Assembly (NCBI GenBank): GCA_032718475.1
Contig: JAUCBJ010000527.1
Coordinates: 21,831-85,830 of the forward strand
DNA from: Nemertoderma westbladi
Taxonomy: Eukaryota > Animalia > Xenacoelomorpha
Reading direction: 5' to 3'
DNA: 64,000 nt
Shown here: positions 26,851 to 47,400 of the stretch, in pieces
Position numbering within the stretch: the first letter of the stretch is position 1
Layout of the letters: every line of letters starts with the position of its first letter
Made by a program: the position numbers and the translations under genes
Notes under the pieces: generated by a model
What the model was told of the DNA's origin: nothing
Database searches by the model: none
Seen by the model: the letters and a program-made list of their open reading frames with translations, nothing else

Positions 26851-27580
26851 CCTTTTTTTTATAAAAGGTTTAGGTACATAGTGTATCTAAACCTACTGTG
26901 TATACTATATTAAACACCTAAAACATGGTGTAGACCTACAAATTATCACATCCTACAGCACATAGTGCTCGGAATAGACACAAAAAACCAAGTCAAGTCT
27001 CTCATTTAATGAATTCCGTGAACTATAGTTCCAATGTAAGTAACCCCCTGCTGGTGTGTTACTGTGTTTCATAATGTTCCTTATGTATAACAGTTTAAGT
27101 AATCAATAACACTTTGTTAACTAAAGCTGGATAATAATTGTGCTGCATGACGATTGTGCTCGACCTCTGCTTGAGTTTCTTATCATGGCTGCTCAGTGTG
27201 ATACCAAACTTATTAATGAAGTAGTAATGTAAGTAGTATGCTAAACAACGTGATTGAGACAGCGTCTGCCATAGTCTACCATGTTAAAGAATTTGCCGAA
27301 CGGCTCTTGCCCCGCCTACTTACTATGATTACTATTGTTGCCCCACCCACTTACTATGGTTACCATGGTTACCATTGTGCATATGTAACATATGTCACCG
27401 CTGTGTATATATGTGACATACGCGGTATAAGACTAGTTTGCAGGCGGAAGTAATTTAATTAATTCGTGTCTACCGGTCGGCGTTTGACCTTGAACCGCAA
27501 TAGGTAAAACCCAATATAGTAAGTGGGTTGCAGACGTTTGTTATTATAAAAGTCTTTAACATGATTTGATTATTCTACCT

Positions 27581-27870
27581 ATGGGGCGAGCCATGAAGTG
27601 AGTGATAGCGTCGAAGTGTGAGTGATAGCGCCGAAGTAAGGTTATGACGCAACAACTAAAAAAGGTAAATAAACACAGACTTATGGGGGCGAGCCGTGAA
27701 GTGAGTTCTTCCTCATCCACAACATCATTACCACTACCACCATCACCCGACGTCCCCTTCATTCCTTTCCAACATTGAAAAAATGGGGCGAGCCATGAAG
27801 CGAGTGAAGCCTTAGCATATGGGCGCCATTAATGAGTTGTGGGGCGAGCTACGGCGAAGTAAGGTTATTG
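27581..27870. repeat. Subterminal dispersed repeats ggggcgagc(c)atgaag / cgaagtaaggtta
   Basis: Four copies at ~27582, 27685, 27784 and 27840. Confidence 0.7.
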
Positions 27871-27957
27871 TATTTATAATATTATCATTATACCAACAAA
27901 TTTGATTATTATACTTAAATCCATCACCATTACTATTTTAAAATTTCTTCCACCACC

Positions 27958-28398
27958 TCACCCATTTATCCCGCTATCCTCGCTATCTACATCCACCACA
28001 TTATTGCCATTACCTCCGCCACCGCCTAACATCTCTAACATTCCCATCAACATTTCAATCCTTTCTTCCATTGCCTTCTCCCGTGCGCACCTCTCAGCCT
28101 CCTTTGCTCTCCTATCCCCCTCAGCCGCCATCTCCAACTCCCAATCTTCCCCCCACACACTCTTGTTTTTCTTCGCCTCTTCCTCCATATAATACTTTTT
28201 TTCTATCACCTCCCACGCATTCCTAGGCTCTAACAATCTCTGCACTCGCGCTTCTTCTTTTTCTGTCAAATACATTGCTACCAGTATCATTTCATTCTCA
28301 TTATCATCTCCATCCTCCACAATCTCATCATCCTCGATACTCTCATCATCCTCTACAATCTCATCCACCACAATCTCATCTTCTCTAACCACATCCAT
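27958..28398 (-). CDS. Acidic, coiled-coil hypothetical viral protein (146 aa), copy 1
   Basis: ATG ORF with a D/E-rich N-terminus and charged helical middle. Confidence 0.55.
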   Translation of the reverse strand: MDVVREDEIVVDEIVEDDESIEDDEIVEDGDDNENEMILVAMYLTEKEEARVQRLLEPRNAWEVIEKKYYMEEEAKKNKSVWGEDWELEMAAEGDRRAKEAERCAREKAMEERIEMLMGMLEMLGGGGGNGNNVVDVDSEDSGING

Positions 28399-28590
28399 GT
28401 ATAATATGTATAATAATAATAATAATAAATACCGGTAAATGCGTGTATAATAAATAAATAACTAAATCTATATAACATTTTTATTTCAACCGATAATTCA
28501 TTAAACCCACAGATAATAATTTAACCGTTACCATGACACCAACCAGAAACATGGTCTATTTATATAATAAAGTTTCTACCGCTCGAAGAT

Positions 28591-29889
28591 TCACACTGAA
28601 TGTTTATTCTTCTTTATTTGAGGTTGCCCATTAGTCTCGATTTCATTGAAAATGTCTTCACCATCATCCGTATCATTGACGATGTCCTCTTCAAAGTCGC
28701 TGATATCTTCATACTCATAGCTAGGTGTTTTATTCACGATGAGATCAATTTTTCGCTTAAGCGCTTGTTCTTTCATGGCTTTAGGTGTTTTCATCTTCAT
28801 CTGAGCGCTCACACCCCCAACGAGGGTATCAATATCCTTATAATCATTCTTTTTTTCAGTGCTGTCTACCTGTTCATTTTCTGGAATCGCGGGCAACCAG
28901 ATTTTTTTCTCATCCATTTTCTTAGCAGCGACTTTTACTGCTTCGGACGTCTTCAGCTGAGTAGCATTGTTCGGCATTTCCACTTTCATTAGTTCCTCGT
29001 CCGTTAATTCATCAATCGCAGCCTCAACAACTAACTTTTTAATCGGTAGAAACTCACACCCAGACGGAATATCGTGGTCCGCGTACTTCTGTAATTGCTT
29101 AATTATCTCGACATTTGCGTTGTTTCGAGGGATGAAAATAACCTTGGTGTCGAAGTTGTGGGACAAATATATCCCGTTTTTGTTAACGGTTGATGTGTAC
29201 CTCATACTAACCTCATCGATATTCTCGTTAACATTCTTATCTATGTTAAAGTCGAGCAAACAGAATTCATCCGCTCTGAGATTCAACCCATCGTAATATA
29301 TAACACCCTTTCGCTGTCTACCTATATCATCCACTTCCCAAACGCCGACAAATCGTTGCCCTTCAAAGTCGTAGATATATCCAATGTACCCACAATCTTC
29401 GAACTCCATAAAATTCTCATCATGAATTTCCTTCTTTTTTGGTTCAATACGGGAAAGAACGACTTTGCCGTAGAAGCTTTGTAAGTAATCTATAATTTTT
29501 CGCGAGATAAAAATTGATGCGCCGTTTTTCCCAATGCGTAAGTACGCATGATTTATCGGTGTTATAAGCAAATTGCCTCAGGTGTATTCCTTGTAATATT
29601 CAATGGCTATTTTATTATAATTGAGGAAGTCAAACAGGAATCTTATGTTCTGGTAAGTAAGACTTACCGATTCTTGTACGACGTTGCGTCCTTTGGTATC
29701 ACCCCAACGGTTGAATCGAACGTATTTCCCGTTAAATGCTTTTATTTCTATTCCTTCCCCCAAACACTCGAGGCCCCACACACTCTTACCTGTAATCACC
29801 GATACGTATGGGGCGGGCACACTATCAGTAGAGCTACCGCTTAATGACATCATTTTTGGTTGTGATGGTTTCACAGATTCCATCAACAA
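28591..29889 (-). pseudogene. PC4-like ssDNA-binding/coactivator-like gene interrupted by one in-frame TGA (29578-29580), copy 1
   Basis: ORFs 29578-29889 and 28591-29571 are in the same frame (EYT*GNLLITP). KYVRFNRW...SVSLT and RFVGVWEV...GLNLRADEF resemble PC4 folds; acidic tail. Confidence 0.5.
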
Positions 29890-30522
29890 ATTTTGCGAAA
29901 TATTAATAATTAAGTGTAAAAATAAAATACAATAATATCGCGCTATACAATGTGCGAAAAATATGATAATGAATGAATTAACCAGAATGACATGATAATG
30001 AATGAATGAATTAACCAGAATGACAAAATAAAGTATTTTACAGACGTATTTATAATATAATGATGGGCTATCGGGAAAACGGGTATATTTTAACCACTCA
30101 ACCGGATTAATCGCTATTGTCGTGAGAGAATTTTTCTGAAAAACTTCCTATAAATTTCAAGGGAAATATTTATTTACGCTTAAATTGGTTGACGTAAGTG
30201 GTGACAGCTTTGCAGCGGCGATTAATGCGGCCGGCCGATAGAAATTTCTATAGACACACCCCCAAATTTCTACAGAATATTACTCACGGTTAAATTGATT
30301 GACGTCAACTGTATTAACTGTGTAGCTTCTTAGAAGTTTCATAATTTTAAGCATGAGCGAATTTAATTTAATGTCGGGATCGCAAACTTTTCTCTCACGA
30401 CAGATATTTTTCTGTAATCACATTTATTACTAAAAACGAATGATTGTGCCGCGCGAGCGGCGTTTTAAAGACACACCCATTATAAATATACCCATTGGTC
30501 AAAATATTATTGATTAAGCAAC
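29890..30522. promoter_or_regulatory. Bidirectional promoter region of the element (copy 1; copy 2 at 32758-33390)
   Basis: Lies between divergent ORFs. Inverted 13-mer tgtcgtgagagaa (30118-30130) / ttctctcacgaca (30390-30402), two taaattg(g/a)ttgacgt boxes and TATA-like tataaata at 30481. Confidence 0.55.
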
Positions 30523-30821
30523 ATGGCAATACTGGGGCAGCTTGAGTCTATAGATAAGATCATTTTTTCAAATATATTATTTATTGTTACCTTTCTTTTA
30601 GGACTTTTTTTAGGTAAAATACGGCATAATAAAAAAATGTTTCCAATAATACAAGCTGAAAATAGTTACCGCGGTCCTAATTCAATTATTCCGATTAAAA
30701 TTGAATTGTTAAGCCCAGCAGCTCGGGCACCTGTATGCGGTTCATATAGCCCAGCTGGGATTGACATATATAGCGCCGTGAATAGAACAATAGAGCCGCA
30801 CTCACGGATGTTAATTGAGAC
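30523..30821 (+). pseudogene. Truncated copy of the dUTPase-like gene, broken at the duplication junction
   Basis: Identical to 33391-33689 up to MLIET, then reads into unrelated duplicated sequence. Confidence 0.85.
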
Positions 30822-30825
30822 CACC

Positions 30826-31266
30826 TCACCCATTTATCCCGCTATCCTCGCTATCTACATCCACCACATTATTGCCATTACCTCCGCCACCGCCTAACAT
30901 CTCTAACATTCCCATCAACATTTCAATCCTTTCTTCCATTGCCTTCTCCCGTGCGCACCTCTCAGCCTCCTTTGCTCTCCTATCCCCCTCAGCCGCCATC
31001 TCCAACTCCCAATCTTCCCCCCACACACTCTTGTTTTTCTTCGCCTCTTCCTCCATATAATACTTTTTTTCTATCACCTCCCACGCATTCCTAGGCTCTA
31101 ACAATCTCTGCACTCGCGCTTCTTCTTTTTCTGTCAAATACATTGCTACCAGTATCATTTCATTCTCATTATCATCTCCATCCTCCACAATCTCATCATC
31201 CTCGATACTCTCATCATCCTCTACAATCTCATCCACCACAATCTCATCTTCTCTAACCACATCCAT
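30826..31266 (-). CDS. Acidic, coiled-coil hypothetical viral protein (146 aa), copy 2
   Basis: Translation identical to 27958-28398. Confidence 0.55.
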   Translation of the reverse strand: MDVVREDEIVVDEIVEDDESIEDDEIVEDGDDNENEMILVAMYLTEKEEARVQRLLEPRNAWEVIEKKYYMEEEAKKNKSVWGEDWELEMAAEGDRRAKEAERCAREKAMEERIEMLMGMLEMLGGGGGNGNNVVDVDSEDSGING

Positions 31267-31458
31267 GTATAATATGTATAATAATAATAATAATAAATAC
31301 CGGTAAATGCGTGTATAATAAATAAATAACTAAATCTATATAACATTTTTATTTCAACCGATAATTCATTAAACCCACAGATAATAATTTAACCGTTACC
31401 ATGACACCAACCAGAAACATGGTCTATTTATATAATAAAGTTTCTACCGCTCGAAGAT

Positions 31459-32757
31459 TCACACTGAATGTTTATTCTTCTTTATTTGAGGTTGCCCATT
31501 AGTCTCGATTTCATTGAAAATGTCTTCACCATCATCCGTATCATTGACGATGTCCTCTTCAAAGTCGCTGATATCTTCATACTCATAGCTAGGTGTTTTA
31601 TTCACGATGAGATCAATTTTTCGCTTAAGCGCTTGTTCTTTCATGGCTTTAGGTGTTTTCATCTTCATCTGAGCGCTCACACCCCCAACGAGGGTATCAA
31701 TATCCTTATAATCATTCTTTTTTTCAGTGCTGTCTACCTGTTCATTTTCTGGAATCGCGGGCAACCAGATTTTTTTCTCATCCATTTTCTTAGCAGCGAC
31801 TTTTACTGCTTCGGACGTCTTCAGCTGAGTAGCATTGTTCGGCATTTCCACTTTCATTAGTTCCTCGTCCGTTAATTCATCAATCGCAGCCTCAACAACT
31901 AACTTTTTAATCGGTAGAAACTCACACCCAGACGGAATATCGTGGTCCGCGTACTTCTGTAATTGCTTAATTATCTCGACATTTGCGTTGTTTCGAGGGA
32001 TGAAAATAACCTTGGTGTCGAAGTTGTGGGACAAATATATCCCGTTTTTGTTAACGGTTGATGTGTACCTCATACTAACCTCATCGATATTCTCGTTAAC
32101 ATTCTTATCTATGTTAAAGTCGAGCAAACAGAATTCATCCGCTCTGAGATTCAACCCATCGTAATATATAACACCCTTTCGCTGTCTACCTATATCATCC
32201 ACTTCCCAAACGCCGACAAATCGTTGCCCTTCAAAGTCGTAGATATATCCAATGTACCCACAATCTTCGAACTCCATAAAATTCTCATCATGAATTTCCT
32301 TCTTTTTTGGTTCAATACGGGAAAGAACGACTTTGCCGTAGAAGCTTTGTAAGTAATCTATAATTTTTCGCGAGATAAAAATTGATGCGCCGTTTTTCCC
32401 AATGCGTAAGTACGCATGATTTATCGGTGTTATAAGCAAATTGCCTCAGGTGTATTCCTTGTAATATTCAATGGCTATTTTATTATAATTGAGGAAGTCA
32501 AACAGGAATCTTATGTTCTGGTAAGTAAGACTTACCGATTCTTGTACGACGTTGCGTCCTTTGGTATCACCCCAACGGTTGAATCGAACGTATTTCCCGT
32601 TAAATGCTTTTATTTCTATTCCTTCCCCCAAACACTCGAGGCCCCACACACTCTTACCTGTAATCACCGATACGTATGGGGCGGGCACACTATCAGTAGA
32701 GCTACCGCTTAATGACATCATTTTTGGTTGTGATGGTTTCACAGATTCCATCAACAA
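31459..32757 (-). pseudogene. PC4-like gene with in-frame TGA (32446-32448), copy 2
   Basis: Identical to copy 1, including the stop. Confidence 0.5.
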
Positions 32758-33390
32758 ATTTTGCGAAATATTAATAATTAAGTGTAAAAATAAAATACAA
32801 TAATATCGCGCTATACAATGTGCGAAAAATATGATAATGAATGAATTAACCAGAATGACATGATAATGAATGAATGAATTAACCAGAATGACAAAATAAA
32901 GTATTTTACAGACGTATTTATAATATAATGATGGGCTATCGGGAAAACGGGTATATTTTAACCACTCAACCGGATTAATCGCTATTGTCGTGAGAGAATT
33001 TTTCTGAAAAACTTCCTATAAATTTCAAGGGAAATATTTATTTACGCTTAAATTGGTTGACGTAAGTGGTGACAGCTTTGCAGCGGCGATTAATGCGGCC
33101 GGCCGATAGAAATTTCTATAGACACACCCCCAAATTTCTACAGAATATTACTCACGGTTAAATTGATTGACGTCAACTGTATTAACTGTGTAGCTTCTTA
33201 GAAGTTTCATAATTTTAAGCATGAGCGAATTTAATTTAATGTCGGGATCGCAAACTTTTCTCTCACGACAGATATTTTTCTGTAATCACATTTATTACTA
33301 AAAACGAATGATTGTGCCGCGCGAGCGGCGTTTTAAAGACACACCCATTATAAATATACCCATTGGTCAAAATATTATTGATTAAGCAAC

Positions 33391-34023
33391 ATGGCAATAC
33401 TGGGGCAGCTTGAGTCTATAGATAAGATCATTTTTTCAAATATATTATTTATTGTTACCTTTCTTTTAGGACTTTTTTTAGGTAAAATACGGCATAATAA
33501 AAAAATGTTTCCAATAATACAAGCTGAAAATAGTTACCGCGGTCCTAATTCAATTATTCCGATTAAAATTGAATTGTTAAGCCCAGCAGCTCGGGCACCT
33601 GTATGCGGTTCATATAGCCCAGCTGGGATTGACATATATAGCGCCGTGAATAGAACAATAGAGCCGCACTCACGGATGTTAATTGAGACGGGTGTTAAAA
33701 TATATTTACCCGCCAATTATTTTGGAAGAATTACGCCGACTTTTAGCTTGACAAAAATTGGCATTGATGTTGCAGAATGTGCGGTCGATTCCAGCGTCGC
33801 ACGCGGTAATATAGATCAACTTGTAATTATATTGATTAACAACACATCTAAGGAATACGTTGTAACATCCGGTGATAAAATATGCCAGCTTATATGCCAA
33901 CAATGTAATGCGGCAATACTCTACGTTTCTAATATTTATTCGGATGATTATTTTGGGGTTTTACCGACGAATTTAACGCCGTATGGGGAAGAGATTAATT
34001 CGGCATTTTACCGCGCATATTAA
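33391..34023 (+). CDS. dUTPase-like protein with N-terminal hydrophobic helix, probably catalytically inactive
   Basis: PAGIDIYS (motif 1), GRITPTFSL (degenerate motif 2), CAVDSSVARG (degenerate motif 3), GDKICQLI (motif 4). Motif 5 (RGxxGFGSTG) is absent. Hydrophobic segment IIFSNILFIVTFLLGLFLG. Confidence 0.8.
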   Translation: MAILGQLESIDKIIFSNILFIVTFLLGLFLGKIRHNKKMFPIIQAENSYRGPNSIIPIKIELLSPAARAPVCGSYSPAGIDIYSAVNRTIEPHSRMLIETGVKIYLPANYFGRITPTFSLTKIGIDVAECAVDSSVARGNIDQLVIILINNTSKEYVVTSGDKICQLICQQCNAAILYVSNIYSDDYFGVLPTNLTPYGEEINSAFYRAY

Positions 34024-34316
34024 ATATGTGACATTAAACGCATAACACCAAACTCGGGTGGTGACACATGTCAATACTATTTCAATACTCTTACACGTGA
34101 TTATACAACATAGTTAATAGAGCATATAAATAGGATAATGTCAGTTCAGTAAATTTTGGTTGGTTAAACGCTTTCTAGTGTGGGTGGCTGGTTGACCGGG
34201 TATTGGATATATTTATCTACATAAAATCTGCCGCATCTCATTCATCGGCATATTGTAAATATGTTTTCTGTACCTACGTTAATAAATATATTATAATCGT
34301 AATAATAATAATTATA

Positions 34317-37300
34317 ATGATGGAGATTAATTGCGTTTTTTGCAGTTGTACTATACTTAAGAAAAATTATTTACGGCATTTACGCACACATTTCGATGGG
34401 TATGTTTGCGATAATTGTAATTGCCGAACTACTTCTGAAAGAATAGCAATATTTCACAGTAATAGATGTTGTGGGTTGTCTCGTCCGAATTACACCTACT
34501 GTGGTTACACGCTATCCTGCCCGACATGCTCTGATGATTTTGAAAACTTCGATTCATATATCGAACATAGTTGCCATCAAAACCACTACAATTCCCGCAA
34601 ACGCAAACATAACCAAAAACAATCAGAACCGACATTTCAACCGGATCTCAACGTTGGTTTGCCTGTAAGCATCACAAACAGCTCAGATACATCCAACGAA
34701 GGTTTTCATCTCTCAACAACATGCCACGAATCCCGCGTTCAGGAATATACCCATAATGTGTCATCTAATGAGATGTATCCAGATGTACCGAATTATTTAA
34801 ATTATATGGGGTTATATGCTTCACGTGCTTTTAACACGACGGCATCGGTTTTTATTGATATGTTTTATAAAGTGTGGTTAATTGCTTCGGTGATAATGGA
34901 ACGCGACGATGCTAATTATACTTTACAAGAAGAATTCCATTTTACTTCGATCGGTACAGATAATTATATTGAAAATAGCCCAGATTTTGACGAATGGTAC
35001 TACACAGTCATTTCCCATATCGGTGAAAAAATATCGCAATTTATTAGGCGGGGTAGCGGCTGGAAACTTGTAACTCTATCGCGCATCAAACTTACTATTG
35101 CGTCATACTTGCGATCGGCATATCGTTTTGGACATAGTGGCGATGCCAACCAATCAATCCCAACGAAATTAAAAAATAAACATTCTGTAATAAATGTACC
35201 GTGTAATGAAGGTGAATGTTTTAAGTGGGCGGTCCTGACAGCAAAATTTTCAAAACATATATCGGATGATCACACACTGCGCCATGTTTCACGCCAAAGT
35301 TCTTATAATCAGTATTTAGGGTTTTTTAATTTAAGCGAATTAGACTCTACCCTATCATGGAAACTAAATATTCTAAAGTTTGAAAAAAATAATCCAAATT
35401 ATTTAATAAATTTATTGTATTTTGATAGAAGTAGTGAAAAAATTTCCTTTCTACGACAACCAAGTGCTAAAAAAGCTGAAGGTAAAAGATTGCTAAATTT
35501 ATTGCTTATTGAACGTCAAAATTTAACCTCAACAAATCACATCGTTGGGGTTTCTAACTTAAATAGATTATTTAATGGTTGTGGGGAAGGCAATAGCAAC
35601 GATCATTGTCATCGTTGTGAGCGGTGTATTCGCGGTTTCTACAGTCCAAATGCGTTAGAACGCCATAGATTATGGTGTTGGCAAGGCGGGCGCCAAATAG
35701 AGGAGATGCCATCTAAACTGAATTTACGCTTTACTAATTACTATAAGTCTGTGAGCACACCTTTCATAGTATATATGGATTTCGAAGTGGTACTAGCCCC
35801 AACAAATAATGTAAAAAAATATTATATAGCCGAACATCTCCCGTCGGCTGTTTCATATTTGATTGTCTCCAATGGTGAATTAATTAACCCCCCAAATTAT
35901 TTTTTGTCTACATTTAGGCAAAATATCGATAATAACTCGGTACAGAATTTTATCGATAGTCTGGTTTTTGATTTATTTAAGTGTTATGAATGGTCTACTT
36001 TTAACACACACCACCCCAAACACCTGGATCACACACAATACCAAGCTTATATGCGTACCACAAATTGCTTTAATTGTAAATCATTTTTCCGGAAAGATAT
36101 AAATCCAAGTGTGATGCATCACAACCATTACAATGGGGCTTTCATTGGTGCGGCGTGTATTTCCTGTAATAAACAATTAAGCGTTAAACGTCACCTATTC
36201 CCAGTTGTCTGTCATAATTTTTTTTTTTATGATTCACATTTAATTTTACAAAAAGGGTTTGCCGGTAGTAAATATAAAAATTGGAACATTGAAACCATTG
36301 CAAAAAATACTGAAAGATATATCTCACTCCGCATCGATATTCCAACGTCAGAAGCACTTAACGTGCTTGGTTATGCTATTCCAGAAAAGGACGTAAGAGG
36401 GCTCCCAACCAGCAAATCAATAACTATACAGTTTATTGATTCATTCGCATTTATGGGATTTTCCCTTTCTGCTTTGGCTGGGTTTTTGGCAAAAGATGTG
36501 TCAGATTTAACAACCGTTATTCCGCACACCGTGAAGCAAATGAGAAAATTATATCCAAATGTTACCGACGAAATTTTACGTCGTAAGTCAGTTTTTCCTT
36601 ACGAATATGTCGATTCCTTAAGTAAATTGGAGGATACTAAATTACCGCATCCAAAAGAGTTTTACAGTGAATTAACATTATCATCTATTAGCCCCGAAGA
36701 ATATACATTTGCACATCTTTCGTGGGAGCAATTTCAATGTAAGACACTTTTTGATTATTTGGAAGCTTACTTACATCTTGACGTTTTGCTGCTAGCCGAT
36801 ATTTTTGAAAATTTTCGCGCATATTGTACTAAACATTATTCGCTTGAGGTGTCGAACTATTACACGATGGCGGGGGTTAGTTGGGACGCGGCTTTGAGAT
36901 TGTCCAAATCACATATTCGTCTACTTGCAGACCATGAAATGTATTTAACATTCGAAAATTCCATTAGGGGTGGGGTTTCTTACACCAACCTTCATATGGC
37001 AAATGCGAATATACCAGGCACAGAAACATACGACCCTAATAAACCTGAAGCTCATTTATATAATTTAGATTTCAACAGTTTATATAGCGGTTCTTTGTCG
37101 GAGAAACTTCCTTATTCTGACTTTGAATGGTTGGATGTTGATAGTGTCGATATCATGAGTCTGGAAATTGACGATATATTTGGATACTTCGCAATTGTAG
37201 ACCTTGAATACCCAATGTCTATTCATGATGCCACAGCTGAGCTTCCATTTGCACCGGAGCATATTAAACTCGATAGTAGGTATCTCAGCCCGCACATGAA

Positions 37301-38387
37301 AAGTCTTTGGCGACATTATAATGGTGATAAAATTTTCAATAGCCCAGCAAAAAAATTGATGTTAACCCAATTTGATAAGTATGAGTACGGCGTGCATCTA
37401 AAATTATTGCGCTTTTATATTCATCATGGTATGCGTTTGATTAAAGTTCATAAACTTATTAGATTTAAGCAAGGTTACATTTTTAAGGATTTTATTGAAT
37501 ATAACACACAGCTAAGAAAAATTGCGCGCAATGACTTTTATGATAAGTTTCACAAAGGAACAAATAACGCGCTTTTCGGGAAAAGCATGGAGAATATACG
37601 GGACCGTGTCTCATTTCGCTTATGTAATTCAATCGAGAAATGTGACTTATTATTATCCAAGCCGAATCACGAAAATTTAATTATGTTCACTGATTCATTA
37701 TCAGGTCACGTCCTATCTAAGGCTGCGGTTTGTTTGCATAAACCTATTTTTTTAGGCCAAGCTGTGTTGGACTTGTCAAAGTTAGATTACTACACTTTTT
37801 TCTACGATAAGTTAAAGCCCATGGAAGCCGAATTAAATTGTAGTATAAATTTGCTAGGTGGGGACACGGATTCTTTTTTTTTACAGTGTGTTGGTTTATC
37901 CCAACACCAATTTTTATCTGCGTTACAATCAAAAAAAGTTTTAGACTGTTCAAATTACCCTATTACGCATCCGTTGTATACAGTAGAACAGAAAGGGAAA
38001 TATAGATATTTAAAGGATGAAGGGAAGTCTATCCCGTTTGACCAGGTTATTTTACTTAGACCAAAATGTTATAGCTTTCGTGGGGGGTCAGTTCCAAAAC
38101 GTGTCGCTAAAGGCGTAGGAAAAATGGTTATAAAAAAGAAACTCTCCCACGAATCATATTTAAAAGTATATAACGAGGTTAGCGAGCATTACGAATACAG
38201 TCAAAGGTTTCAATCTAATTTACATAAAATATACACCGTTTCACAAAGAAAAAAATCGCTAACACTGTGGGAAGATAAAAGGTACTACACATCGACTAAT
38301 GAAAGTCTACCTTACGGTCATTATAAAACACATTTGGATCGTAAAGCGCCTGCCCCTAAGCTTTATATGCCGCCCATTATAGAATAG
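34317..38387 (+). CDS. Protein-primed family B DNA polymerase (Polinton/adintovirus type), ~1356 aa
   Basis: Uninterrupted ORF; first in-frame ATG at 34317. N-terminal C2H2-like fingers, RGSGW, CFKWAV, ExoI YMDFE, EndoVII-like HHNHYNG..GAACISCN, ExoII HN..YDSH, FIDS, KSVFPYEY, ExoIII DVLLLADIFENFR, IRGG, DFNSLY, KGTNNALFGKSMEN, GDTDS, LRPKCY, KGV, DKR, LPYGHY. Confidence 0.95.
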   Translation: MMEINCVFCSCTILKKNYLRHLRTHFDGYVCDNCNCRTTSERIAIFHSNRCCGLSRPNYTYCGYTLSCPTCSDDFENFDSYIEHSCHQNHYNSRKRKHNQKQSEPTFQPDLNVGLPVSITNSSDTSNEGFHLSTTCHESRVQEYTHNVSSNEMYPDVPNYLNYMGLYASRAFNTTASVFIDMFYKVWLIASVIMERDDANYTLQEEFHFTSIGTDNYIENSPDFDEWYYTVISHIGEKISQFIRRGSGWKLVTLSRIKLTIASYLRSAYRFGHSGDANQSIPTKLKNKHSVINVPCNEGECFKWAVLTAKFSKHISDDHTLRHVSRQSSYNQYLGFFNLSELDSTLSWKLNILKFEKNNPNYLINLLYFDRSSEKISFLRQPSAKKAEGKRLLNLLLIERQNLTSTNHIVGVSNLNRLFNGCGEGNSNDHCHRCERCIRGFYSPNALERHRLWCWQGGRQIEEMPSKLNLRFTNYYKSVSTPFIVYMDFEVVLAPTNNVKKYYIAEHLPSAVSYLIVSNGELINPPNYFLSTFRQNIDNNSVQNFIDSLVFDLFKCYEWSTFNTHHPKHLDHTQYQAYMRTTNCFNCKSFFRKDINPSVMHHNHYNGAFIGAACISCNKQLSVKRHLFPVVCHNFFFYDSHLILQKGFAGSKYKNWNIETIAKNTERYISLRIDIPTSEALNVLGYAIPEKDVRGLPTSKSITIQFIDSFAFMGFSLSALAGFLAKDVSDLTTVIPHTVKQMRKLYPNVTDEILRRKSVFPYEYVDSLSKLEDTKLPHPKEFYSELTLSSISPEEYTFAHLSWEQFQCKTLFDYLEAYLHLDVLLLADIFENFRAYCTKHYSLEVSNYYTMAGVSWDAALRLSKSHIRLLADHEMYLTFENSIRGGVSYTNLHMANANIPGTETYDPNKPEAHLYNLDFNSLYSGSLSEKLPYSDFEWLDVDSVDIMSLEIDDIFGYFAIVDLEYPMSIHDATAELPFAPEHIKLDSRYLSPHMKSLWRHYNGDKIFNSPAKKLMLTQFDKYEYGVHLKLLRFYIHHGMRLIKVHKLIRFKQGYIFKDFIEYNTQLRKIARNDFYDKFHKGTNNALFGKSMENIRDRVSFRLCNSIEKCDLLLSKPNHENLIMFTDSLSGHVLSKAAVCLHKPIFLGQAVLDLSKLDYYTFFYDKLKPMEAELNCSINLLGGDTDSFFLQCVGLSQHQFLSALQSKKVLDCSNYPITHPLYTVEQKGKYRYLKDEGKSIPFDQVILLRPKCYSFRGGSVPKRVAKGVGKMVIKKKLSHESYLKVYNEVSEHYEYSQRFQSNLHKIYTVSQRKKSLTLWEDKRYYTSTNESLPYGHYKTHLDRKAPAPKLYMPPIIE

Positions 38388-38396
38388 CGGATTGTG

Positions 38397-38819
38397 ATGT
38401 CTTTTAGTATTGTCAACAGTAATATAAGTTTGAGGTTGGGTGATGGGTGCATATCATTCGATGTGCTGGCTAAACGAATTCGAAATGGAAAACTCATCTT
38501 AAAGCCTTACCAATATATCGCCAAAATTTGCGGATGGACGTGTCTCTTTTTCCCGAGCGGTAAGGTCACTGTACTCGGTAAATCACCTAAAATAAAAAAA
38601 ATTATTAAGTATATATATAAGCATACTGATTATAAACTAACTTTTATTTCAATCAATAGCCAAACTTATATTATTAACAATCTAGACATAGACTATAGCA
38701 AATTAATGAAAACGGTTGGGTTTCATTTTTTAGATAATTATTATAATGTGGAGGTGAAATATGAGCCGGAGATATTTAATAATATTCTTGTGCAGTTTTA
38801 TCGATCAATTAGGGTCTAA
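38397..38819 (+). CDS. Viral-type TATA-binding-protein-like gene, truncated in its second repeat
   Basis: SIVNSN...IRNGK...TCLFFPSGKVTVLG (cf. TBP TALIFSSGKMVCTG) and VKYEPEIF (cf. SYEPELF). Starts 9 bp after the PolB stop; the sequence switches to another TE at ~38805. Confidence 0.7.
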   Translation: MSFSIVNSNISLRLGDGCISFDVLAKRIRNGKLILKPYQYIAKICGWTCLFFPSGKVTVLGKSPKIKKIIKYIYKHTDYKLTFISINSQTYIINNLDIDYSKLMKTVGFHFLDNYYNVEVKYEPEIFNNILVQFYRSIRV

Positions 38820-38947
38820 TTAGCCTAATTGGGAGGTGTCACCCAGACAGTCTGGCGCCAATGACACCCAATGACACCCTATGGGTGATAATAGGGTGTC
38901 ATATGACACCCAATGGGTGTCAGTGAGGTCTAACTTTCGCAAAGCCG
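38806..38947. mobile_element. End of an unidentified DNA transposon/MITE that truncates the Polinton-like element
   Basis: Abrupt compositional change; repeated tgacaccc/gggtgtca motifs in both orientations. Confidence 0.4.
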
Positions 38948-38949
38948 TG

Positions 38950-39420
38950 CAAACCCCTACTACAAGAGTCTACTACGACGTTTCATTATCTGGATACTAG
39001 GAGATAATGAATGGACCTACACAGATCGGCTCAAATCACTTAAACATACTCCCCCTTTCTCTCTACCTACAACTCCTAGATTTGATGACGCTGTCGAAGA
39101 TTATCGCTGGGAAATGCGACATCAACTGGGAAGAACACCTTAAACTCAACAAACCATCAAACCAAAATACTCGTTCAAGTGATCGGATTTTATCTAATGT
39201 TGCGCGGCCGAAAAAATGCAAATCAGAACAAAATTTTTGATTCCGAATACCTTACATTGCAAATGCATTACCAAAGCGAATTTTACAAACAATGTAGGAC
39301 TTAAATCTCGTCTGATCGACTTATTTTGGAGATATTTCATAAACCCTACTCAAGTGATATTCACTGTAGCTGGTCAGTGTGCTTCAGCTGCGTCTTGATG
39401 AACTGTAGAAACATAACTCT
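38950..39420 (+). pseudogene. CR1-group LINE ORF2 3' end relic
   Basis: LNILPLSLYLQLLDL...TRS...RPKKCKSEQNF...LKSRL..LFW and a terminal Cys cluster. Confidence 0.55.
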
Positions 39421-39568
39421 CATCTCGATGATTTATACCCATAGATAATGACTTATATTGTATACTGCTTTATTAATTAATACAAATTTTATTTCATTAA
39501 ATTTTATTGCATCTCATTTTAAATTTAATACGCCATTTTTACGACATAAAATCCGACACTTTTATTAA

Positions 39569-41176
39569 GGGGGGGGTACACCCCCCCCCAGGTCAAAATT
39601 TTCATTTTTTGTTTTTTTATTTCATCTAGAGTAGAATTTAATGCGGATTTCAAATCTGGAAACGGCTTAGCGAGATCTCTTTTACTTCTCGAGTAATGGC
39701 TGGTTTTCCGTCTGTATGTCTGTCTGTCTGTCCATCGAAATATTAAAAAGGGCATAAAATAAGCAATCTGAAATATTTACTGTTAGGATTTTTCTTAAAG
39801 TCGATGTCTGTTTTAATATTTGGAATTATCTAATCACTATGTCTGTATATCAGCCTGTCTCTCAGTTTGTCTGTCTGTTTGTCTGTCTGTCTGTTTGTCA
39901 ACATGTCCGTCAAATTTTAATTAATATATATTTAATAGATATTTGTGAGTTTTGTATTACATATTGAAAAGTTGTCTAATGGACTAGTTGTCTACTAGTA
40001 ATAAAAAATGTGAACCATTATATAACAATAGCTAGTAATAATTATTCTGGGAAACAACCATAAACTTATTTTTTTTTAAATTCCGCAGGCTCTGAGAATA
40101 ATTCACGTGCTGCGCGAAGTCTTCATGTGCAGCATGAACTTTTCATGTGCCGCGTGAAGGCTTCTCATTCTGATCAAAAAGCTTTCCGAGGTGCTCGATT
40201 AATTAACGTGCTTTATGAAGAATTTAAGTGCTACGTGAAACCTTCACCTGCTGCGCAAATGTCTCACGTGCTGCGCGAAGGTTTCACATGCTGCGCAAAG
40301 CTTAATGTTCTGTGTAAAGGCTTGTAATAAAATTATGTGGAAATTTTTATATAATTTTGAATGTTTCTTAAGGTTATCTCATTATTCCATGACTATTTAT
40401 TACTAAATGACGAAATAGTATGCGATCAAATCAATACGCCAAAATGTAATTTGTTGACGTGCTGCGCGAAGTGTTTTTTGGCAAGCACTCTAAAATTATT
40501 TTAACAGGTTGTTAAAAGTGGGTAGGGGTTTTTTTGAACCAAATTTCATGAAATCCATTGAGAAATCACAAAATATGGATAGGGGATAACCAATGGGAAA
40601 AGAAAAGGAGATACCAGTACTGAAAATAGCGGGAACATTTGAAATATATTGTTCTTAAACTTTAAATGCGTTTATCTCGGAACTGTATTTTTCACATTCA
40701 AAATACTACTACTCGGCCATTTCTTAACCAATTTTTGAAATTTTTTTTTTGTTTGATTTCTTTTCGGGTTTTGATCAAAAGTTATCGGTTAGAATTTTGA
40801 ATTGTGCCATATTAATTTCTTGAAATTAGTTAATATCTATTAAGTAATAATTAATATTAGTTAATAATATTTAAAAAATATTTAAGACCTAAATAAAAAA
40901 TGTAACCGATAAGTTTTGTGGAGCCGAGGATGCTGATTCAGAAAAACCAAGTTTTGAAAATTTTCGCCCAAAATTGTGAGACTAGTAGTGTTTTTAGTGA
41001 AATTAACAATTTCGCTGGTGGCCGCTAGAGGGCGACGCAAATTTGAAAAAAAATTTTTTGAACCCAATCTTTGGCCATATTTTAATCCCCCGAAAGGTAT
41101 AAAATATACAAAATTACACACAAGCAGAAATTATAGCCATTTGCAAAAAAGGTCCATAGGGGGGTGTACCCCCCCC
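39569..41176. mobile_element. Non-autonomous DNA transposon with TTAA TSD (Kolobok-like)
   Basis: ttaa|ggggggggtacacccccc ... ggggggtgtacccccccc|ttaa; no ORF; internal cacgtgctgcgcgaag repeats. Confidence 0.8.
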
Positions 41177-41432
41177 TTAATACGAATATATATTTCATCT
41201 TATTTTAATACACATAATTTATTTCATTCCATGAATGACAACCAGTCTTCTGACCCTTTTAACTTTTTCGTTTAATCTCATAATTAGCACGGCCTTTTTG
41301 AGACCAATTACAGTAATAATTTTAATTCGGAGTATTTTAATGTACTTTAATTAATTTTTAACTCATGATTTAAACTACGTATATGTTTTTTTATGGGGGA
41401 AACCCCATCACCATAATACTATAGTTTCCTTA

Positions 41433-44400
41433 TAGTTATCCTTTGGCACTCACTCCTTCTCTTACTCAGCACCCATCGTTTTTAATAAAAATACCCCGTT
41501 ACAACCTAGTTTCCTTTGGCACTCACTCCTTCTCTTACTCAGCACCCATCGTTTTTAATAAAAAATACCCCGTTACAACCTAGTATCCTTTGGTGCTCGC
41601 TCCTTCTCTTACTCAACACCTATCGTTTTTAATAAAAATACCCCGTTACAACCTAGTATCCTTTGGCACTCGCTCCTTCTCTTACTCAACACCTATCGTT
41701 TTTAATAAAAATACCCCGTTACAACCTAGTATCCTTTGGCGCTCGCTCTTTCTCTTACTCAACACCTGTCGTTTTTAATAAAAATACCCCGTTACAACCT
41801 AGTATCCTTTGGCGCTCACTCCTTCTCTTACTCAACACCTGTCGTTTTTAATAAAAATACCCCGTTACAACCTAGTATCCTTTGGCACTCGCTCCTTTTC
41901 TTACTCAACACCTGTCGTTTTTAATAAAAATACCCCGTTACAACCTAGTATCCTTTGGCACTCGCTCCTTCTCTTACTCAACACTTATCGTTTTTAATAA
42001 AAATACCCCATTACAACCTAGTATCCTTTGGCGCTCGCTCCTTCTCTTACTCAACACTTATCGTTTTTAATAAAAATACCCCGTTACAACCTAGTATCCT
42101 TTGGCACTCGCTCCTTCTCTTACTCAACACCTATCGTTTTTAATAAAAATACCCCGTTACAACCTAGTATCCTTTGGCACTCGCTCCTTCTCTTACTCAA
42201 CACCTATCGTTTTTACTAAAAATACCCCGTTACAACCTAGTATCCTTTGGCACTCGCTCCTTCTCTTACTCAACACCTATCGTTTTTACTAAAAATACCC
42301 CGTTACAACCTAGTATCCTTTGGCACTCGCTCCTTCTCTTACTCAACACCTATCGTTTTTAATAAAAATACCCCGTTACAACCTAGTATCCTTTGGCACT
42401 CGCTCCTTCTCTTACTCAACACCTATCGTTTTTAATAAAAATACCCCGTTACAACCTAGTATCCTTTGGCACTCGCTCCTTCTCTTACTCAACACCTATA
42501 GTTTTTACTAAAAATACCCCGTTACAACCTAGTATCCTTTGGCACTCGCTCCTTCTCTTACTCAACACCTATCGTTTTTAATAAAAATACCCCGTTACAA
42601 CCTAGTATCCTTTGGCGCTCGCTCTTTCTCTTACTCAACACCTGTCGTTTTTAATAAAAATACCCCGTTACAACCTAGTATCCTTTGGCGCTCACTCCTT
42701 CTCTTACTCAACACCTGCCGTTTTTAATAAAAATACCCCGTTACAACCTAGTATCCTTTGGCACTCGCTCCTTTTCTTACTCAACACCTGTCGTTTTTAA
42801 TAAAAATACCCCGTTACAACCTAGTATCCTTTGGCACTCGCTCCTTCTCTTACTCAACACTTATCGTTTTTAATAAAAATACCCCATTACAACCTAGTAT
42901 CCTTTGGCGCTCGCTCCTTCTCTTACTCAACACTTATCGTTTTTAATAAAAATACCCCGTTACAACCTAGTATCCTTTGGCACTCGCTCCTTCTCTTACT
43001 CAACACTTATCGTTTTTAATAAAAATACCACATTACAACCTAGTATCCTTTGGCACTCGCTCCTTCTCTTACTCAGCACCCGTCATTTTTAATAAAAATA
43101 CCCCGTTACAACCTAGTATCCTTTGGCACTCGCTCCTTCTCTTACTCAACACTTATCGTTTTTAATAAAAATACCACATTACAACCTAGTATCCTTTGGC
43201 ACTCGCTCCTTCTCTTACTCAGCACCCGTCATTTTTAATAAAAATACCCCATTACAACCTAGTATCCTTTGGCGCTCGCTCCTTCTCTTACTCAACACTT
43301 ATCGTTTTTAATAAAAATACCCCGTTACAACCTAGTATCCTTTGGCACTCGCTCCTTCTCTTACTCAACACTTATCGTTTTTAATAAAAATACCCCGTTA
43401 CAACCTAGTATCAGTTGGCACTCGCTCCTTCTCTTACTCAGCACCCGTCATTTTTAATAAAAATACCCCGTTACAACCTAGTATCCTTTGGCACTCGCTC
43501 CTTCTCTTACTCAACACTTATCGTTTTTAATAAAAATACCACATTACAACCTAGTATCCTTTGGCACTCACTCCTTCTCTTACTCAGCACCCGTCATTTT
43601 TAATAAAAATACCCCGTTACAACCTAGTATCCTTTGGCACTCGCTCCTTCTCTTACTCAACACTTATCGTTTTTAATAAAAATACCACATTACAACCTAG
43701 TATCCTTTGGCACTCGCTCCTTCTCTTACTCAGCACCCGTCATTTTTAATAAAAATACCCCGTTACAACCTAGTATCCTTTGGCACTCGCTCCTTCTCTT
43801 ACTCAACACTTATCGTTTTTAATAAAAATACCACATTACAACCTAGTATCCTTTGGCACTCGCTCCTTCTCTTACTCAGCACCCGTCATTTTTAATAAAA
43901 ATACCCCATTACAACCTAGTATCCTTTGGCACTCGCTCCTTCTCTTACTCAACACTTATCGTTTTTAATAAAAATACCACATTACAACCTAGTATCCTTT
44001 GGCACTCGCTCCTTCTCTTACTCAGCACCCGTCATTTTTAATAAAAATACCCCGTTACAACCTAGTATCCTTTGGCACTCGCTCCTTCTCTTACTCAACA
44101 CTTATCGTTTTTAATAAAAATACCACATTACAACCTAGTATCCTTTGGCACTCGCTCCTTCTCTTACTCAGCACCCGTCATTTTTAATATAAATACCCCA
44201 TTACAACCTAGTATCCTTTGGCACTCGCTCCTTCTCTTACTCAGCACCTGTTGTTTTTAATAAAAATACCCCATTACAACCTAGTATCCTTTGGCACTCG
44301 CTCCTTCTCTTACTCAGCACCTGTTGTTTTTAATAAAAATACCCCGTTACAACCTAGTATCCTTTGGCACTCGCTCCTTCTCTTACTCAGCACCTGTTGT

Positions 44401-47400
44401 TTTTAATAAAAATACCCCATTACAACCTAGTATCCTTTGGCACTCGCTCCTTCTCTTACTCAACACCTATCGTTTTTAATAAAAATACCCCGTTACAACC
44501 TAGTATCCTTTGGCACTCGCTCCTTCTCTTACTCAACACTTATCGTTTTTAATAAAAATACCCCATTACAACCTAGTATCCTTTGGCACTCGCTCCTTCT
44601 CTTACTCAACACTTATCGTTTTTAATAAAAATACCACATTACAACCTAGTATCCTTTGGCACTCGCTCCTTCTCTTACTCAGCACCCGTCATTTTTAATA
44701 AAAATACCCCGTTACAACCTAGTATCCTTTGGCACTCGCTCCTTCTCTTACTCAACACTTATCGTTTTTAATAAAAATACCACATTACAACCTAGTATCC
44801 TTTGGCATTCGCTCCTTCTCTTACTCAGCACCCGTCATTTTTAATAAAAATACCCCGTTACAACCTAGTATCCTTTGGCACTCGCTCCTTCTCTTACTCA
44901 ACACCTATCGTTTTTAATAAGAATACCCCATTACAACCTAGTATCCTTTGGCACTCGGTCCTTCTCTTACTCAACACTTATCGTTTTTAATAAAAATACC
45001 ACATTACAACCTAGTATCCTTTGGCACTCGCTCCTTCTCTTACTCAACACTTATCGTTTTTAATAAAAATACCCCGTTACAACCTAGTATCCTTTGGCAC
45101 TCGCTCCTTCTCTTACTCAGCACCTGTCATTTTTAATAAAAATACCCCATTACAACCTAGTATCCTTTGGCACTCGCTCCTTCTCTTACTCAGCACCCGT
45201 CATTTTTAATAAAAATACCCCGTTACAACCTAGTATCCTTTGGCACTCGCTCCTTCTCTTACTCAGCACCCGTCATTTTTAATAAAAATACCCCGTTACA
45301 ACCTAGTATCCTTTGGCACTCGCTCCTTCTCTTACTCAACACTTATCGTTTTTAATAAAAATACCACATTACAACCTAGTATCCTTTGGCACTCGCTCCT
45401 TCTCTTACTCAGCACCCGTCATTTTTAATAAAAATACCCCGTTACAACCTAGTATCCTTTGGCACTCGCTCCTTCTCTTACTCAACACTTATCGTTTTTA
45501 ATAAAAATACCCCGTTACAACCTAGTATCCTTTGGCACTCGCTCCTTCTCTTACTCAGCACCCGTCATTTTTAATAAAAATACCCCGTTACAACCTAGTA
45601 TCCTTTGGCACTCGCTCCTTCTCTTACTCAACACTTATCGTTTTTAATAAAAACGGTGACACAGAACCATTTGAAGTGTTATGGGACGTCCTCCAAGGAG
45701 ACACACTTGCACCATTCTTGTTCATTATTGTGGTTGACTATGTTCTACGCATGTCCTTAGATCATCATAATGATGATGGGGTGATGATAACTCCACCTAC
45801 TGGCTCCAGAAGTCGAGGAAATCCTGCCAAGTACCTAACTGATCTAGACTTTGCTGATGACTTAGGAGTACTCTCAGAATCATTAGAGGGAGCCCAGCGG
45901 CTCCTCAGCTCATTAGAACATGCTGCTTCTAGTGTTGGTCTTTTTATTAACTCCAGAAAGACCAAAATTCTGACAGTTAACTTTGAAAGTCCTCAGCAAG
46001 TCTCTGATCGGATGAGCATAAGCTCAAAGGATGGTATGCTTGAGCATGTGGACGACTTCTGTTACCTGGGATCATGGATCCGGAAGTCAGGTGAGGACCT
46101 TCGAATACGTAAGGGAAAGGCATGGGCAGCCTTGAATAGGCTTTCCAGGATTTGGAAGTCACCTAGAATTAATCGGAAACTTAAGGTCCGATTATTTAGA
46201 GCAGCAGTAGTTCCAGTACTCCTCTACGGGAGTCCATGCTGGGCTCTAACTGCTGAGGACACCAAATCTCTGGATGGCACATTCACAAGAATGCTACGCC
46301 GGGTACATTGTGTCAAGTACAATGCACACATCTCCAACCAGACACTATATAACATTGGAGGTGTCTCATTGGTTCCCCCAAGCTTGACACTAGAACAAAA
46401 TCGCCTCCGCTTTGCAGGACATTGCTTTCGCCGTGAGGACCAGCCAGTGCATAATCTTGTACTTTGGCAGCCTCATGGAGTGAATAAGCATGGTGGACAG
46501 CCCATGACTTTCTTGAGACGCATCTTAAAGGACACTGGCCTTAAAGATGCGGATGATCTAGCAAATGTCATGGGTGATAGGGAGTTGTGGCGGTGCAATT
46601 TTGTTGACAAGCCGGCACAGCATTCTTAAAAATGCAGCTGCAATGCAGCATGCCGATCCTAGTAGTAGTAGTAGTAGTAGTAGTTTTTAATAAAAATACC
46701 CCATTACAACCTAGTATCCTTTGGTGCTCGCTCCTTCTCTTACTCAACACTTATCGTTTTTAATAAAAATACCCCGTTACAACCTAGTATCCTTTGGTAC
46801 TCGCTCCTTCTCTTACTCAACACTTATCGTTTTTAATAAAAATACCACATTACAACCTAGTATCCTTTGGCACTCGCTCCTTCTCTTACTCAGCACCCGT
46901 CATTTTTAATAAAAATACCCCGTTACAACCTAGTATCCTTTGGCACTCGCTCCTTCTCTTACTCAACACTTATCGTTTTTAATAAAAATACCACATTACA
47001 ACCTAGTATCCTTTGGCACTCGCTCCTTCTCTTACTCAGCACCCGTCATTTTTAATAAAAATACCCCATTACAACCTAGTATCCTTTGGCACTCGCTCCT
47101 TCTCTTACTCAACACTTATCGTTTTTAATAAAAATACCCCGTTACAACCTAATATCCTTTGGCACTCGCTCCTTCTCTTACTCAGCACCCGTCATTTTTA
47201 ATAAAAATACCCCATTACAACCTAGTATCCTTTGGCACTCGCTCCTTCTCTTACTCAGCACCCGTCATTTTTAATAAAAATACCCCGTTACAACCTAGTA
47301 TCCTTTGGCACTCGCTCCTTCTCTTACTCAACACTTATCGTTTTTAATAAAAATACCATATTACAACCTAGTATCCTTTGGCACTCGCTCCTTCTCTTAC

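What the first reader, a model, noticed from the sequence alone, without database searches (positions are those of the whole stretch)
27232..38819. Polinton-like endogenous virus with an apparent transcription kit: TBP-like, PC4-like and pseudo-dUTPase genes around an intact pPolB
Seen: a fully open pPolB with its exonuclease and polymerase motifs; 9 bp downstream a small intronless TBP-fold ORF; upstream a dUTPase-fold ORF and, divergently, a PC4-like gene; and an AGTAGT candidate terminus. Known: the canonical Polinton core is pPolB, RVE integrase, ATPase, protease and major/minor capsid, and viral TBPs are best known from large DNA viruses. Inference: this may be a poorly described pPolB virus lineage that supplies its own TBP and PC4-type factors to redirect host Pol II. 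The right arm is missing here, so its integrase and capsid type are unknown.
Basis: partly seen in the sequence, partly recalled or inferred. Interest (0 to 1): 0.85.

Follow-up and report, generated by a model that had tools for sequence, protein, structure and literature searches.

The report
Broken Maverick carrying a TBP-like gene
This is the left half of a virus-like Maverick transposon whose last gene is a cut-short relative of the cell's TATA-binding protein; intact relatives keep that gene and likely use it to steer the host's RNA polymerase to their own genes, but the proposed 'transcription kit' shrinks to this one gene.

Summary
Real but narrower than proposed. 27232-38819 is the left arm of a multi-copy Maverick/Polinton. 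Its AGTAGT end is confirmed by different flanks in public runs, and its 1356-aa pPolB is open. The ORF 9 bp downstream is a true TBP-family relative (44 bits against a profile of 51 homologues; best of 2000 shuffles 9), but it lacks about 40 C-terminal residues, and the right arm is absent from the window. Three of 113 related loci carry the gene, all in the window's pPolB clade; two also have integrase and packaging ATPase. So this is a TBP-bearing Maverick lineage, not a new virus type. The PC4 label is suggestive only, and such a protein would more likely serve DNA replication. The dUTPase-like gene lost catalytic motifs and gained a predicted membrane anchor. A 'TBP' label already appears in Starrett 2021 (Fig. 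5 legend); my searches found no analysis of it. The scan noted Maverick TBPs before on other DNA (63 notes, at least 6 genomes). My test for a matching late promoter box in relatives was not significant.

The parts
27232..27237 (+). Left terminus of the element, (AGT)2 end motif
   Evidence: Different flanks join at 27232 in runs X1, X2, X3; flank contigs end at or leave the window's sequence at 27231. (AGT)2 is the commonest Maverick end motif (PMC8097293 passage).
27232..27950 (.). Terminal and subterminal region with 31-, 20- and 25-bp direct repeats; presumed left TIR whose partner is not in the window
   Evidence: inner boundary not determined
27952..30821 (.). First copy of an exact 2870-bp tandem duplication: copies of the 146-, 272- and 101-aa ORFs and a truncated dUTPase-like ORF (30523-30897)
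   Evidence: 100% identical to 30820-33689; ORFs
30826..31266 (-). 146-aa acidic ORF (32% D+E), no family, no LxCxE motif
31459..32277 (-). 272-aa ORF with acidic C-terminal half, no family
32446..32751 (-). 101-aa ORF, possible PC4-like fold (unproven)
   Evidence: AF2 single-sequence model pLDDT 42 with strand-strand-strand-helix order; 8 of the first 22 listed Foldseek rows are PC4-family chains, all E 0.7-1.3; VIA-align best Z 3.5, to an unrelated fold
32752..33390 (.). Divergent intergenic region with TATAAATA on each strand (32915 minus, 33349 plus), two CRE-like and one E2F-like word
   Evidence: function inferred, motif names recalled
33391..34023 (+). dUTPase-fold ORF, 210 aa, predicted membrane segment at residues 13-31, motif II altered and motif V missing; likely pseudo-enzyme
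34125..34146 (+). TATAAATA plus TCAGTT initiator-like word upstream of pPolB
   Evidence: function inferred
34317..38387 (+). Open protein-primed DNA polymerase B, 1356 aa, divergent class (no PF03175 hit), N-terminal Cys/His clusters and an Endonuclease-VII-like insert near residues 584-617
   Evidence: Endonuclease_7 hits in close relatives
38397..38819 (+). TBP-like ORF, 140 aa, lacking about 40 C-terminal residues relative to homologues; the element copy breaks near 38803-38819
   Evidence: contigs of runs X1 and X3 leave the window's sequence at 38803

Best explanation
This is the left arm of a multi-copy Maverick/Polinton element, broken inside its TBP-like gene, whose intact relatives likely use that TBP-like protein as their own promoter-binding factor to draw host RNA polymerase II to element genes, probably the later virion genes. 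Shown: terminus, open pPolB, TBP homology, truncation, and co-occurrence of the gene with integrase and ATPase in relatives. Inferred: pPolB and its neighbours are early genes read by host TFIID from canonical TATAAATA boxes. The TBP-like protein would bend DNA with the three kept phenylalanines and recruit host TFIIB through the kept acidic second stirrup, while the remodelled first stirrup would change sequence or partner specificity. The 101-aa protein, if PC4-like, more likely binds the displaced single strand during pPolB replication. The dUTPase-like protein is likely a membrane-anchored pseudo-enzyme with a non-catalytic job. This copy itself is likely dead.
For: Window ORF scores 44.3 bits against a profile of 51 homologues built without it; best of 2000 shuffles 9.2. 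Relatives pass Pfam's TBP cut-off: L034 E 4e-12, L038 2e-15, L081 5e-13. A 4-sequence profile hits 35 PDB TBP sequences, best E 1e-13. All 3 TBP-bearing loci of 113 lie in the window's pPolB clade (17 of 38 rows, SH-aLRT 100; FastTree 0.999 on 108 rows). 0 of 21 out-of-clade loci of 12 kb or more with integrase and ATPase carry it. L034 and L038 have rve+chromo integrase and ATPase. In the 51 homologues three phenylalanine columns (50/51, 51/51, 51/51), two asparagine columns (49/49, 50/51) and both glutamates of E-x-E-L-F-P (50/51, 51/51) are kept. The gene is under purifying selection between L034 and L081: dN 0.50, dS 2.84, near saturation; pPolB 0.27 and 2.52. TATAAATA lies upstream of 4 of 6 window genes. 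Precedent for a viral TBP mimic that directs host Pol II to late genes: KSHV ORF24 (PMC12529657 abstract).
Against: No expression, binding or promoter data for this element. The shared upstream words in relatives (TTAAGC in 5 of 14 L034 genes, CATAAA in 7 of 13 L038 genes) were found after the fact. A best-6-mer null was as good in 163 of 300 and 15 of 300 shuffles, and TBP-less elements have shared upstream words too. The late genes of this element are not in the window. The TFIIB contact of the second stirrup is recalled, not tested. The homologue set is dominated by one subfamily; the window and L038 sit on long branches. The clade association is one evolutionary event, and 5 of 8 in-clade loci are too short to score. 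Most Mavericks lack the gene, so it is not needed for the life cycle in general.
Confidence: 0.55

Rival explanations
1. The TBP-like protein is a decoy. It would titrate host TFIIB, TFIIA, NC2 or Mot1/BTAF1, or occupy host TATA boxes, damping host transcription instead of activating element genes.
For: The second stirrup is kept while the first is remodelled. No significant element-specific box was found. In the window the gene sits 9 bp behind pPolB among early-type, host-manipulation-like ORFs.
Against: The DNA-facing asparagine and phenylalanine columns are nearly invariant, which a pure protein decoy would not need. In L038 the gene lies directly before the ATPase and integrase genes.
Confidence: 0.2
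2. The TBP fold serves replication or packaging. It would bend the AT-rich terminal repeat to help terminal-protein priming by pPolB, working with the small single-strand-binding protein, much as host DNA-bending factors help adenovirus origins (recalled).
For: Tight linkage to pPolB: 9 bp in the window, about 1 kb in L034 and L081, with two small conserved ORFs in between. A divergent TBP can bind single-stranded DNA (Giardia, PMC12209930 abstract and passages).
Against: The gene is 5.5 kb from pPolB in L038. The conserved acidic stirrup points to a transcription partner (inference). Out-of-clade elements replicate without it.
Confidence: 0.12
3. One reading: TBP-like and PC4-like proteins form a joint initiation kit of a separate pPolB virus lineage.
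For: PC4-family chains cluster among the top Foldseek rows for the 101-aa model (8 of the first 22 listed). L034 and L081 have two small conserved ORFs next to their TBP-like gene.
Against: No significant PC4 hit by any method. The small ORFs of L034/L081 do not match the window's ORF and L038 shows no counterpart. Relatives are standard Mavericks.
Confidence: 0.1
4. The TBP-like ORF is a captured host gene fragment with no role in the element.
For: It is truncated in this copy and scores under Pfam's cut-off (15.4 versus 22.9 bits).
Against: It is intronless and closer to element-borne homologues (44 bits) than to any solved cellular TBP (18 bits). It recurs across the pPolB clade and is under purifying selection in relatives.
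Confidence: 0.03

Closest known systems
Mavericks/Polintons of animals; adintoviruses of Starrett et al. 2021 (PMC8502044), divergent 'Beta' PolB class
   Same: (AGT)2 end, pPolB, accessory ORFs upstream of PolB; relatives have rve+chromo integrase, ATPase, PLA2 or pX-like and capsid-like genes. That paper's supplementary maps also label dUTPase and SSDBP genes.
   Different: Carries a TBP-like gene, found in 3 of 113 related loci. The dUTPase is degenerate with a predicted membrane anchor. This copy lacks the right arm. The Beta assignment rests only on weak or absent PF03175 scores, not on a tree with the paper's reference sequences.
The 'TBP'-labelled gene in Fig. 5 of Starrett et al. [quoted passage not shown]
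   Same: A TBP-like gene in a pPolB element is already in print as a figure label.
   Different: No analysis of residues, distribution or function in the sections read. The figure is not visible, so which element and host carry the label is unknown to me.
Beta/gamma-herpesvirus TBP mimics (KSHV ORF24; PMC12529657, abstract and outline read)
   Same: A virus without its own RNA polymerase encodes a TBP-fold protein; proposed working analogy.
   Different: ORF24 uses an extra C-terminal domain and is predicted not to bind TFIIB directly (section heading). The Maverick protein is a bare 165-200-aa saddle that keeps the acidic second stirrup. No matching late box was shown here.
Cellular and archaeal TBP (PF00352; PDB 4wzs_D, 2z8u_A, 1ytb)
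   Same: Two-repeat layout, LIF-x-SGK-like strand and YEPELFP stirrup align.
   Different: About 20-25% identity, first stirrup shortened to R-P-x-M, no N-terminal tail; this copy lacks the end of repeat 2.
PC4-like single-strand-binding proteins (human PC4, MoSub1, phage T5 4bg7; PMC7549692 passages)
   Same: Predicted strand-strand-strand-helix order; non-significant clustering of fold hits.
   Different: No significant sequence or structure match.

Membership tests
Maverick/Polinton | Protein-primed DNA polymerase B | tested here: met
   Open 1356-aa ORF; motifs; 4055 homologues; tree
Maverick/Polinton | (AGT)2 or (AG)3 end motif at a true terminus | tested here: met
   Different flanks join at 27232 in 3 of 4 runs; motif per PMC8097293
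Maverick/Polinton | Paired terminal inverted repeats and 5-8-bp target-site duplication | tested here: inconclusive
Maverick/Polinton | rve integrase | tested here: inconclusive
   No trace in the window, arm missing; present in clade relatives L034 and L038
Maverick/Polinton | Packaging ATPase, protease, double-jelly-roll capsid | tested here: inconclusive
   Absent from the window. Relatives: ATPase with sub-threshold A32/IVa2 hits. L034 capsid-like ORF matches a PF21738 protein at pairwise E 6e-6. L034 protease label is by eye; no protease hit in PDB.
TBP (PF00352) | Homology to the TBP fold | tested here: met
   Through relatives and profiles; the window ORF alone is below Pfam's cut-off
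TBP (PF00352) | Complete two-repeat saddle in this copy | tested here: not met
   ORF ends at profile position 148, before the last strands and helix that homologues have
TBP (PF00352) | Four intercalating phenylalanines (PMC12209930 passages) | tested here: not met
   Three kept in the family and the first-stirrup one not clearly kept; two present in this truncated copy
TBP (PF00352) | TATA binding and TFIIB recruitment | not testable with these tools
   Needs biochemistry
PC4 (PF02229) | Sequence or fold match | tested here: inconclusive
   No profile hit; low-confidence model with non-significant PC4 rows
Trimeric dUTPase | Fold homology | tested here: met
   Pfam E 6e-16; 55 PDB sequences, best E 3e-18
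Trimeric dUTPase | Five catalytic motifs (numbering recalled) | tested here: not met
   Motif II Arg-Ser replaced, motif III partly changed, motif V absent: match ends at profile position 107 of 129, against 129 of 129 for L112's dUTPase

The most novel reading that the evidence does not exclude
One whole pPolB clade of animal Mavericks encodes a stand-alone mini-TBP that takes the place of host TFIID on its virion-gene promoters. That would be a one-protein early-to-late switch evolved independently of the herpesvirus TBP mimics. In this lineage it travels with a PC4-like replication protein and a membrane-anchored pseudo-dUTPase, which would parallel adenovirus E4-ORF1 (recalled).
Probability: 0.35. 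Interest if true: 0.75.

Novelty: new variant of a known kind. Interest (0 to 1): 0.45.

Why it matters
How Mavericks time their genes is open: they have no RNA polymerase, and particles have not been observed (PMC8097293 abstract listing). A clade-wide, selected TBP-like gene gives a concrete, testable handle on that question, and a natural experiment on which TBP surfaces can be rewired. This copy is a poor specimen, since the gene is cut and the late genes are gone. Its value is that it adds a long-branch member (best pPolB relatives 36-39% identical) and shows the family was mobile recently in this host.

Tried and rejected
Single-sequence searches with the TBP-like ORF found nothing: 12 candidates with none at E<=0.01, and 0 hits among 1.84 billion representatives. 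Its single-sequence AF2 model was unusable (pLDDT 35) and was not fold-searched. TBP-alignment and 101-aa scans of viral contigs confirmed no locus. The PC4 family search covered only 6 of 28 requested records, 0 hits. Atlas hits for the 101-aa and 272-aa ORFs were under 0.9, leads only. Fold searches of the 101-aa model in BFVD and VIA-align gave nothing significant. The homodimer prediction for the 101-aa protein gave no verdict. The small ORFs of L034/L081 do not match the window's ORF or a PDB sequence. The late-box idea was not significant after correcting for the motif search. No RNA holder was listed, which says nothing about expression. The flank continuation seen in runs X1 and X3 is not in the window, so no target-site duplication could be read. 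My early label 'Alpha adintovirus' was dropped after reading the class definition. Whether the 2870-bp duplication is real or an assembly artefact was not settled: no joint across it was among the rows shown, and 51 rows were hidden. Literature searches without a dedicated paper on Maverick TBP or PC4. TBP/TATA had 0 occurrences in four Polinton papers searched. The library lacks most subscription papers, Repbase was not available, and bioRxiv supplements and the slide-format supplements of PMC8502044 could not be seen; any of these may already describe the gene.
Full report
OBSERVATION. The pPolB motifs lie at residues 488, 633, 819, 918, 1080 and 1182 (labels recalled). It has no PF03175 hit, but 4055 of 7993 scored candidates match at E<=1e-30, the best at 36-39% identity. 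The element without the duplication is about 8.7 kb. Whether the duplication is biological or an assembly artefact is not settled.

ENDS AND COPY STATUS. Four public DNA runs from at most three samples hold the stretch. At 27232, contigs with different flanks join the element in X1 (5), X2 (4) and X3 (3). In X1 and X3 the unique flank continues past 27231 with other sequence. So AGTAGT at 27232 is the real end, of the (AGT)2 type that is commonest in Mavericks (PMC8097293, passages), and the insertion is probably polymorphic. Contigs inside the element have depths of 2538-2932 in X1 against 119-126 for the flank (table 8). The tool warns that this is no copy number, but it agrees with many near-identical copies. 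On the right, contigs of X1 and X3 leave the window's sequence at 38803. A hairpin repeat, a MITE-like element and an 18-kb satellite follow. A tblastn of 953 ORFs from related loci finds no integrase, ATPase, protease or capsid remains in the window, and the flank continuation is absent too.

THE TBP-LIKE GENE. Alone it is marginal: Pfam TBP E 0.016, under the cut-off; best PDB hit a microsporidian TBP at E 0.015; nothing in two large searches. Related loci settle it. Of 113 pPolB loci (33 viral, 80 metagenomic), three carry a TBP-like ORF: L034, L038 and L081. All three pass Pfam's cut-off. A profile of these three plus the window hits 35 solved TBP sequences and 93 database proteins. A profile of 51 homologues, built without the window but picked with a profile that included it, scores the window ORF at 44.3 bits; the best of 2000 shuffles scores 9.2. 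The ORF ends just after the second stirrup and lacks about 40 residues, including the fourth phenylalanine position and the last helix. In the 51 homologues three phenylalanine columns, two asparagine columns and both glutamates of the second stirrup are nearly invariant, while the first stirrup has become R-P-x-M. Four phenylalanines kink the DNA in canonical TBP (PMC12209930, passages); that the second stirrup contacts TFIIB is recalled. The homologues are mostly one subfamily, and the window and L038 are long branches. Their genomic context was not read, though several lie on contigs of 12-20 kb. Between L034 and L081 the gene shows dN 0.50 and dS 2.84, with synonymous sites near saturation.

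WHAT KIND OF ELEMENT. In pPolB trees the window falls in one clade with all three TBP-bearing loci (108 rows, FastTree 0.999; 38 of those rows, 17-row clade, SH-aLRT 100). Both in-clade loci of 12 kb or more carry the gene, as does the short L081. Five in-clade loci have under 2 kb downstream of pPolB and cannot be scored. None of 21 out-of-clade loci of 12 kb or more with integrase and ATPase has it. This is one clade, so one event, not many independent ones. L034 has rve+chromo integrase, an ATPase with a weak A32 hit, an Adeno_PX protein and a capsid-like ORF. L038 has integrase, ATPase, PLA2 and KilA-N genes. These are the standard features of Mavericks/adintoviruses (PMC8502044, sections 7, 8 and 10 read; bioRxiv 2023.08.22.554363, passages and section 8). 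The weak PF03175 scores fit that paper's divergent Beta class; this was not tested against its reference sequences.

THE OTHER TWO GENES. The 101-aa ORF has no profile hit and no Atlas hit above 0.81. Its single-sequence model is poor (pLDDT 42) but shows three strands and then a helix. 8 of the first 22 listed Foldseek rows are PC4-family chains, at E 0.7-1.3, while VIA-align ranks unrelated folds first. I put a PC4 fold at about 60%. Even so, PC4-like proteins are general single-strand binders and the phage T5 one is a replication factor (PMC7549692, passages). Adintovirus maps already carry an SSDBP label, and pPolB copies by strand displacement (recalled), so a replication role is likelier than a coactivator role. 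The dUTPase fold is certain. Motif II is altered, motif V is missing, and an N-terminal hydrophobic segment is added, so 'pseudo-dUTPase' is fair, but nothing ties it to transcription.

MECHANISM. Four of the six window genes have TATAAATA upstream, pPolB with an initiator-like word as well, which fits early genes read by host machinery. The word is not rare (9 in 27 kb of flank). I take the TBP-like protein of intact elements to be a promoter-binding factor that recruits host Pol II to element genes, probably late ones, by analogy with KSHV ORF24 (PMC12529657, abstract and outline). The late-switch lead came from earlier scan notes. My own test gave weak results. TTAAGC precedes 5 of 14 L034 genes against 1 of 262 genes in TBP-less loci, and CATAAA precedes 7 of 13 L038 genes. 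A best-6-mer null did as well in 163 of 300 and 15 of 300 shuffles. The switch is therefore an inference at about even odds; decoy and replication roles remain open.

NOVELTY. A 'TBP' gene label is in the Fig. 5 legend of Starrett et al. 2021; the figure itself could not be seen. Seven searches and term look-ups in four Polinton papers found no analysis of Maverick TBP or PC4 genes. Subscription papers, Repbase and some supplements were out of reach. The scan has 63 earlier notes on Maverick TBPs in at least 6 other genomes, two with the same PC4 pairing; none matched this sequence. Verdict: a new variant of a known kind. It is a truncated, divergent member of a TBP-bearing Maverick clade, the gene is real, and the 'kit' is not shown. 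Interest 0.45.

Noticed in passing
window 27231/27232: In runs X1 and X3 the unique flank contig continues past 27231 with other sequence. This suggests an allele without the insertion, so this insertion is likely polymorphic and recent.
   Followed up: partly
window 41437-59543: An 18-kb satellite of about 248 copies of a 73-bp unit, interrupted near 46057-46673 by a fragment that matches LINE-like pieces at 8177-9659 in inverted orientation.
   Followed up: no
window 39563-41182: A 1.6-kb element with perfect 24-bp inverted ends that include TTAA; MITE-like, family not determined.
   Followed up: no
window 38810-38950: A small hairpin-rich repeat directly after the break in the TBP-like ORF.
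   Followed up: partly
window 27784: 29, 35, 36 and 9 contigs with unlike flanks join just before 27784 in the four runs: a separate short repeat family seems to share the element's subterminal GGGGCGAGC word.
   Followed up: no
window 33391-34023: The dUTPase-like ORF has a hydrophobic stretch at residues 13-31 (mean Kyte-Doolittle 2.45) followed by basic residues: a predicted membrane-anchored pseudo-dUTPase.
   Followed up: partly
L034:7095-8161 and L081:4454-5492: Two small conserved ORFs between pPolB and the TBP-like gene, no Pfam or NCBIfam hit, dN below dS; they look like doubled strand-strand-strand-helix proteins by eye.
   Followed up: partly
L112:751-1526: An out-of-clade Maverick has an intact dUTPase and, by eye, a BIR-like ORF directly upstream of pPolB, so dUTPase beside pPolB is not tied to TBP.
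   Followed up: partly
P0167-P0218: Many database entries of 77-102 aa are only the C-terminal half of the TBP-like protein; short gene calls or spliced genes, not examined.
   Followed up: no
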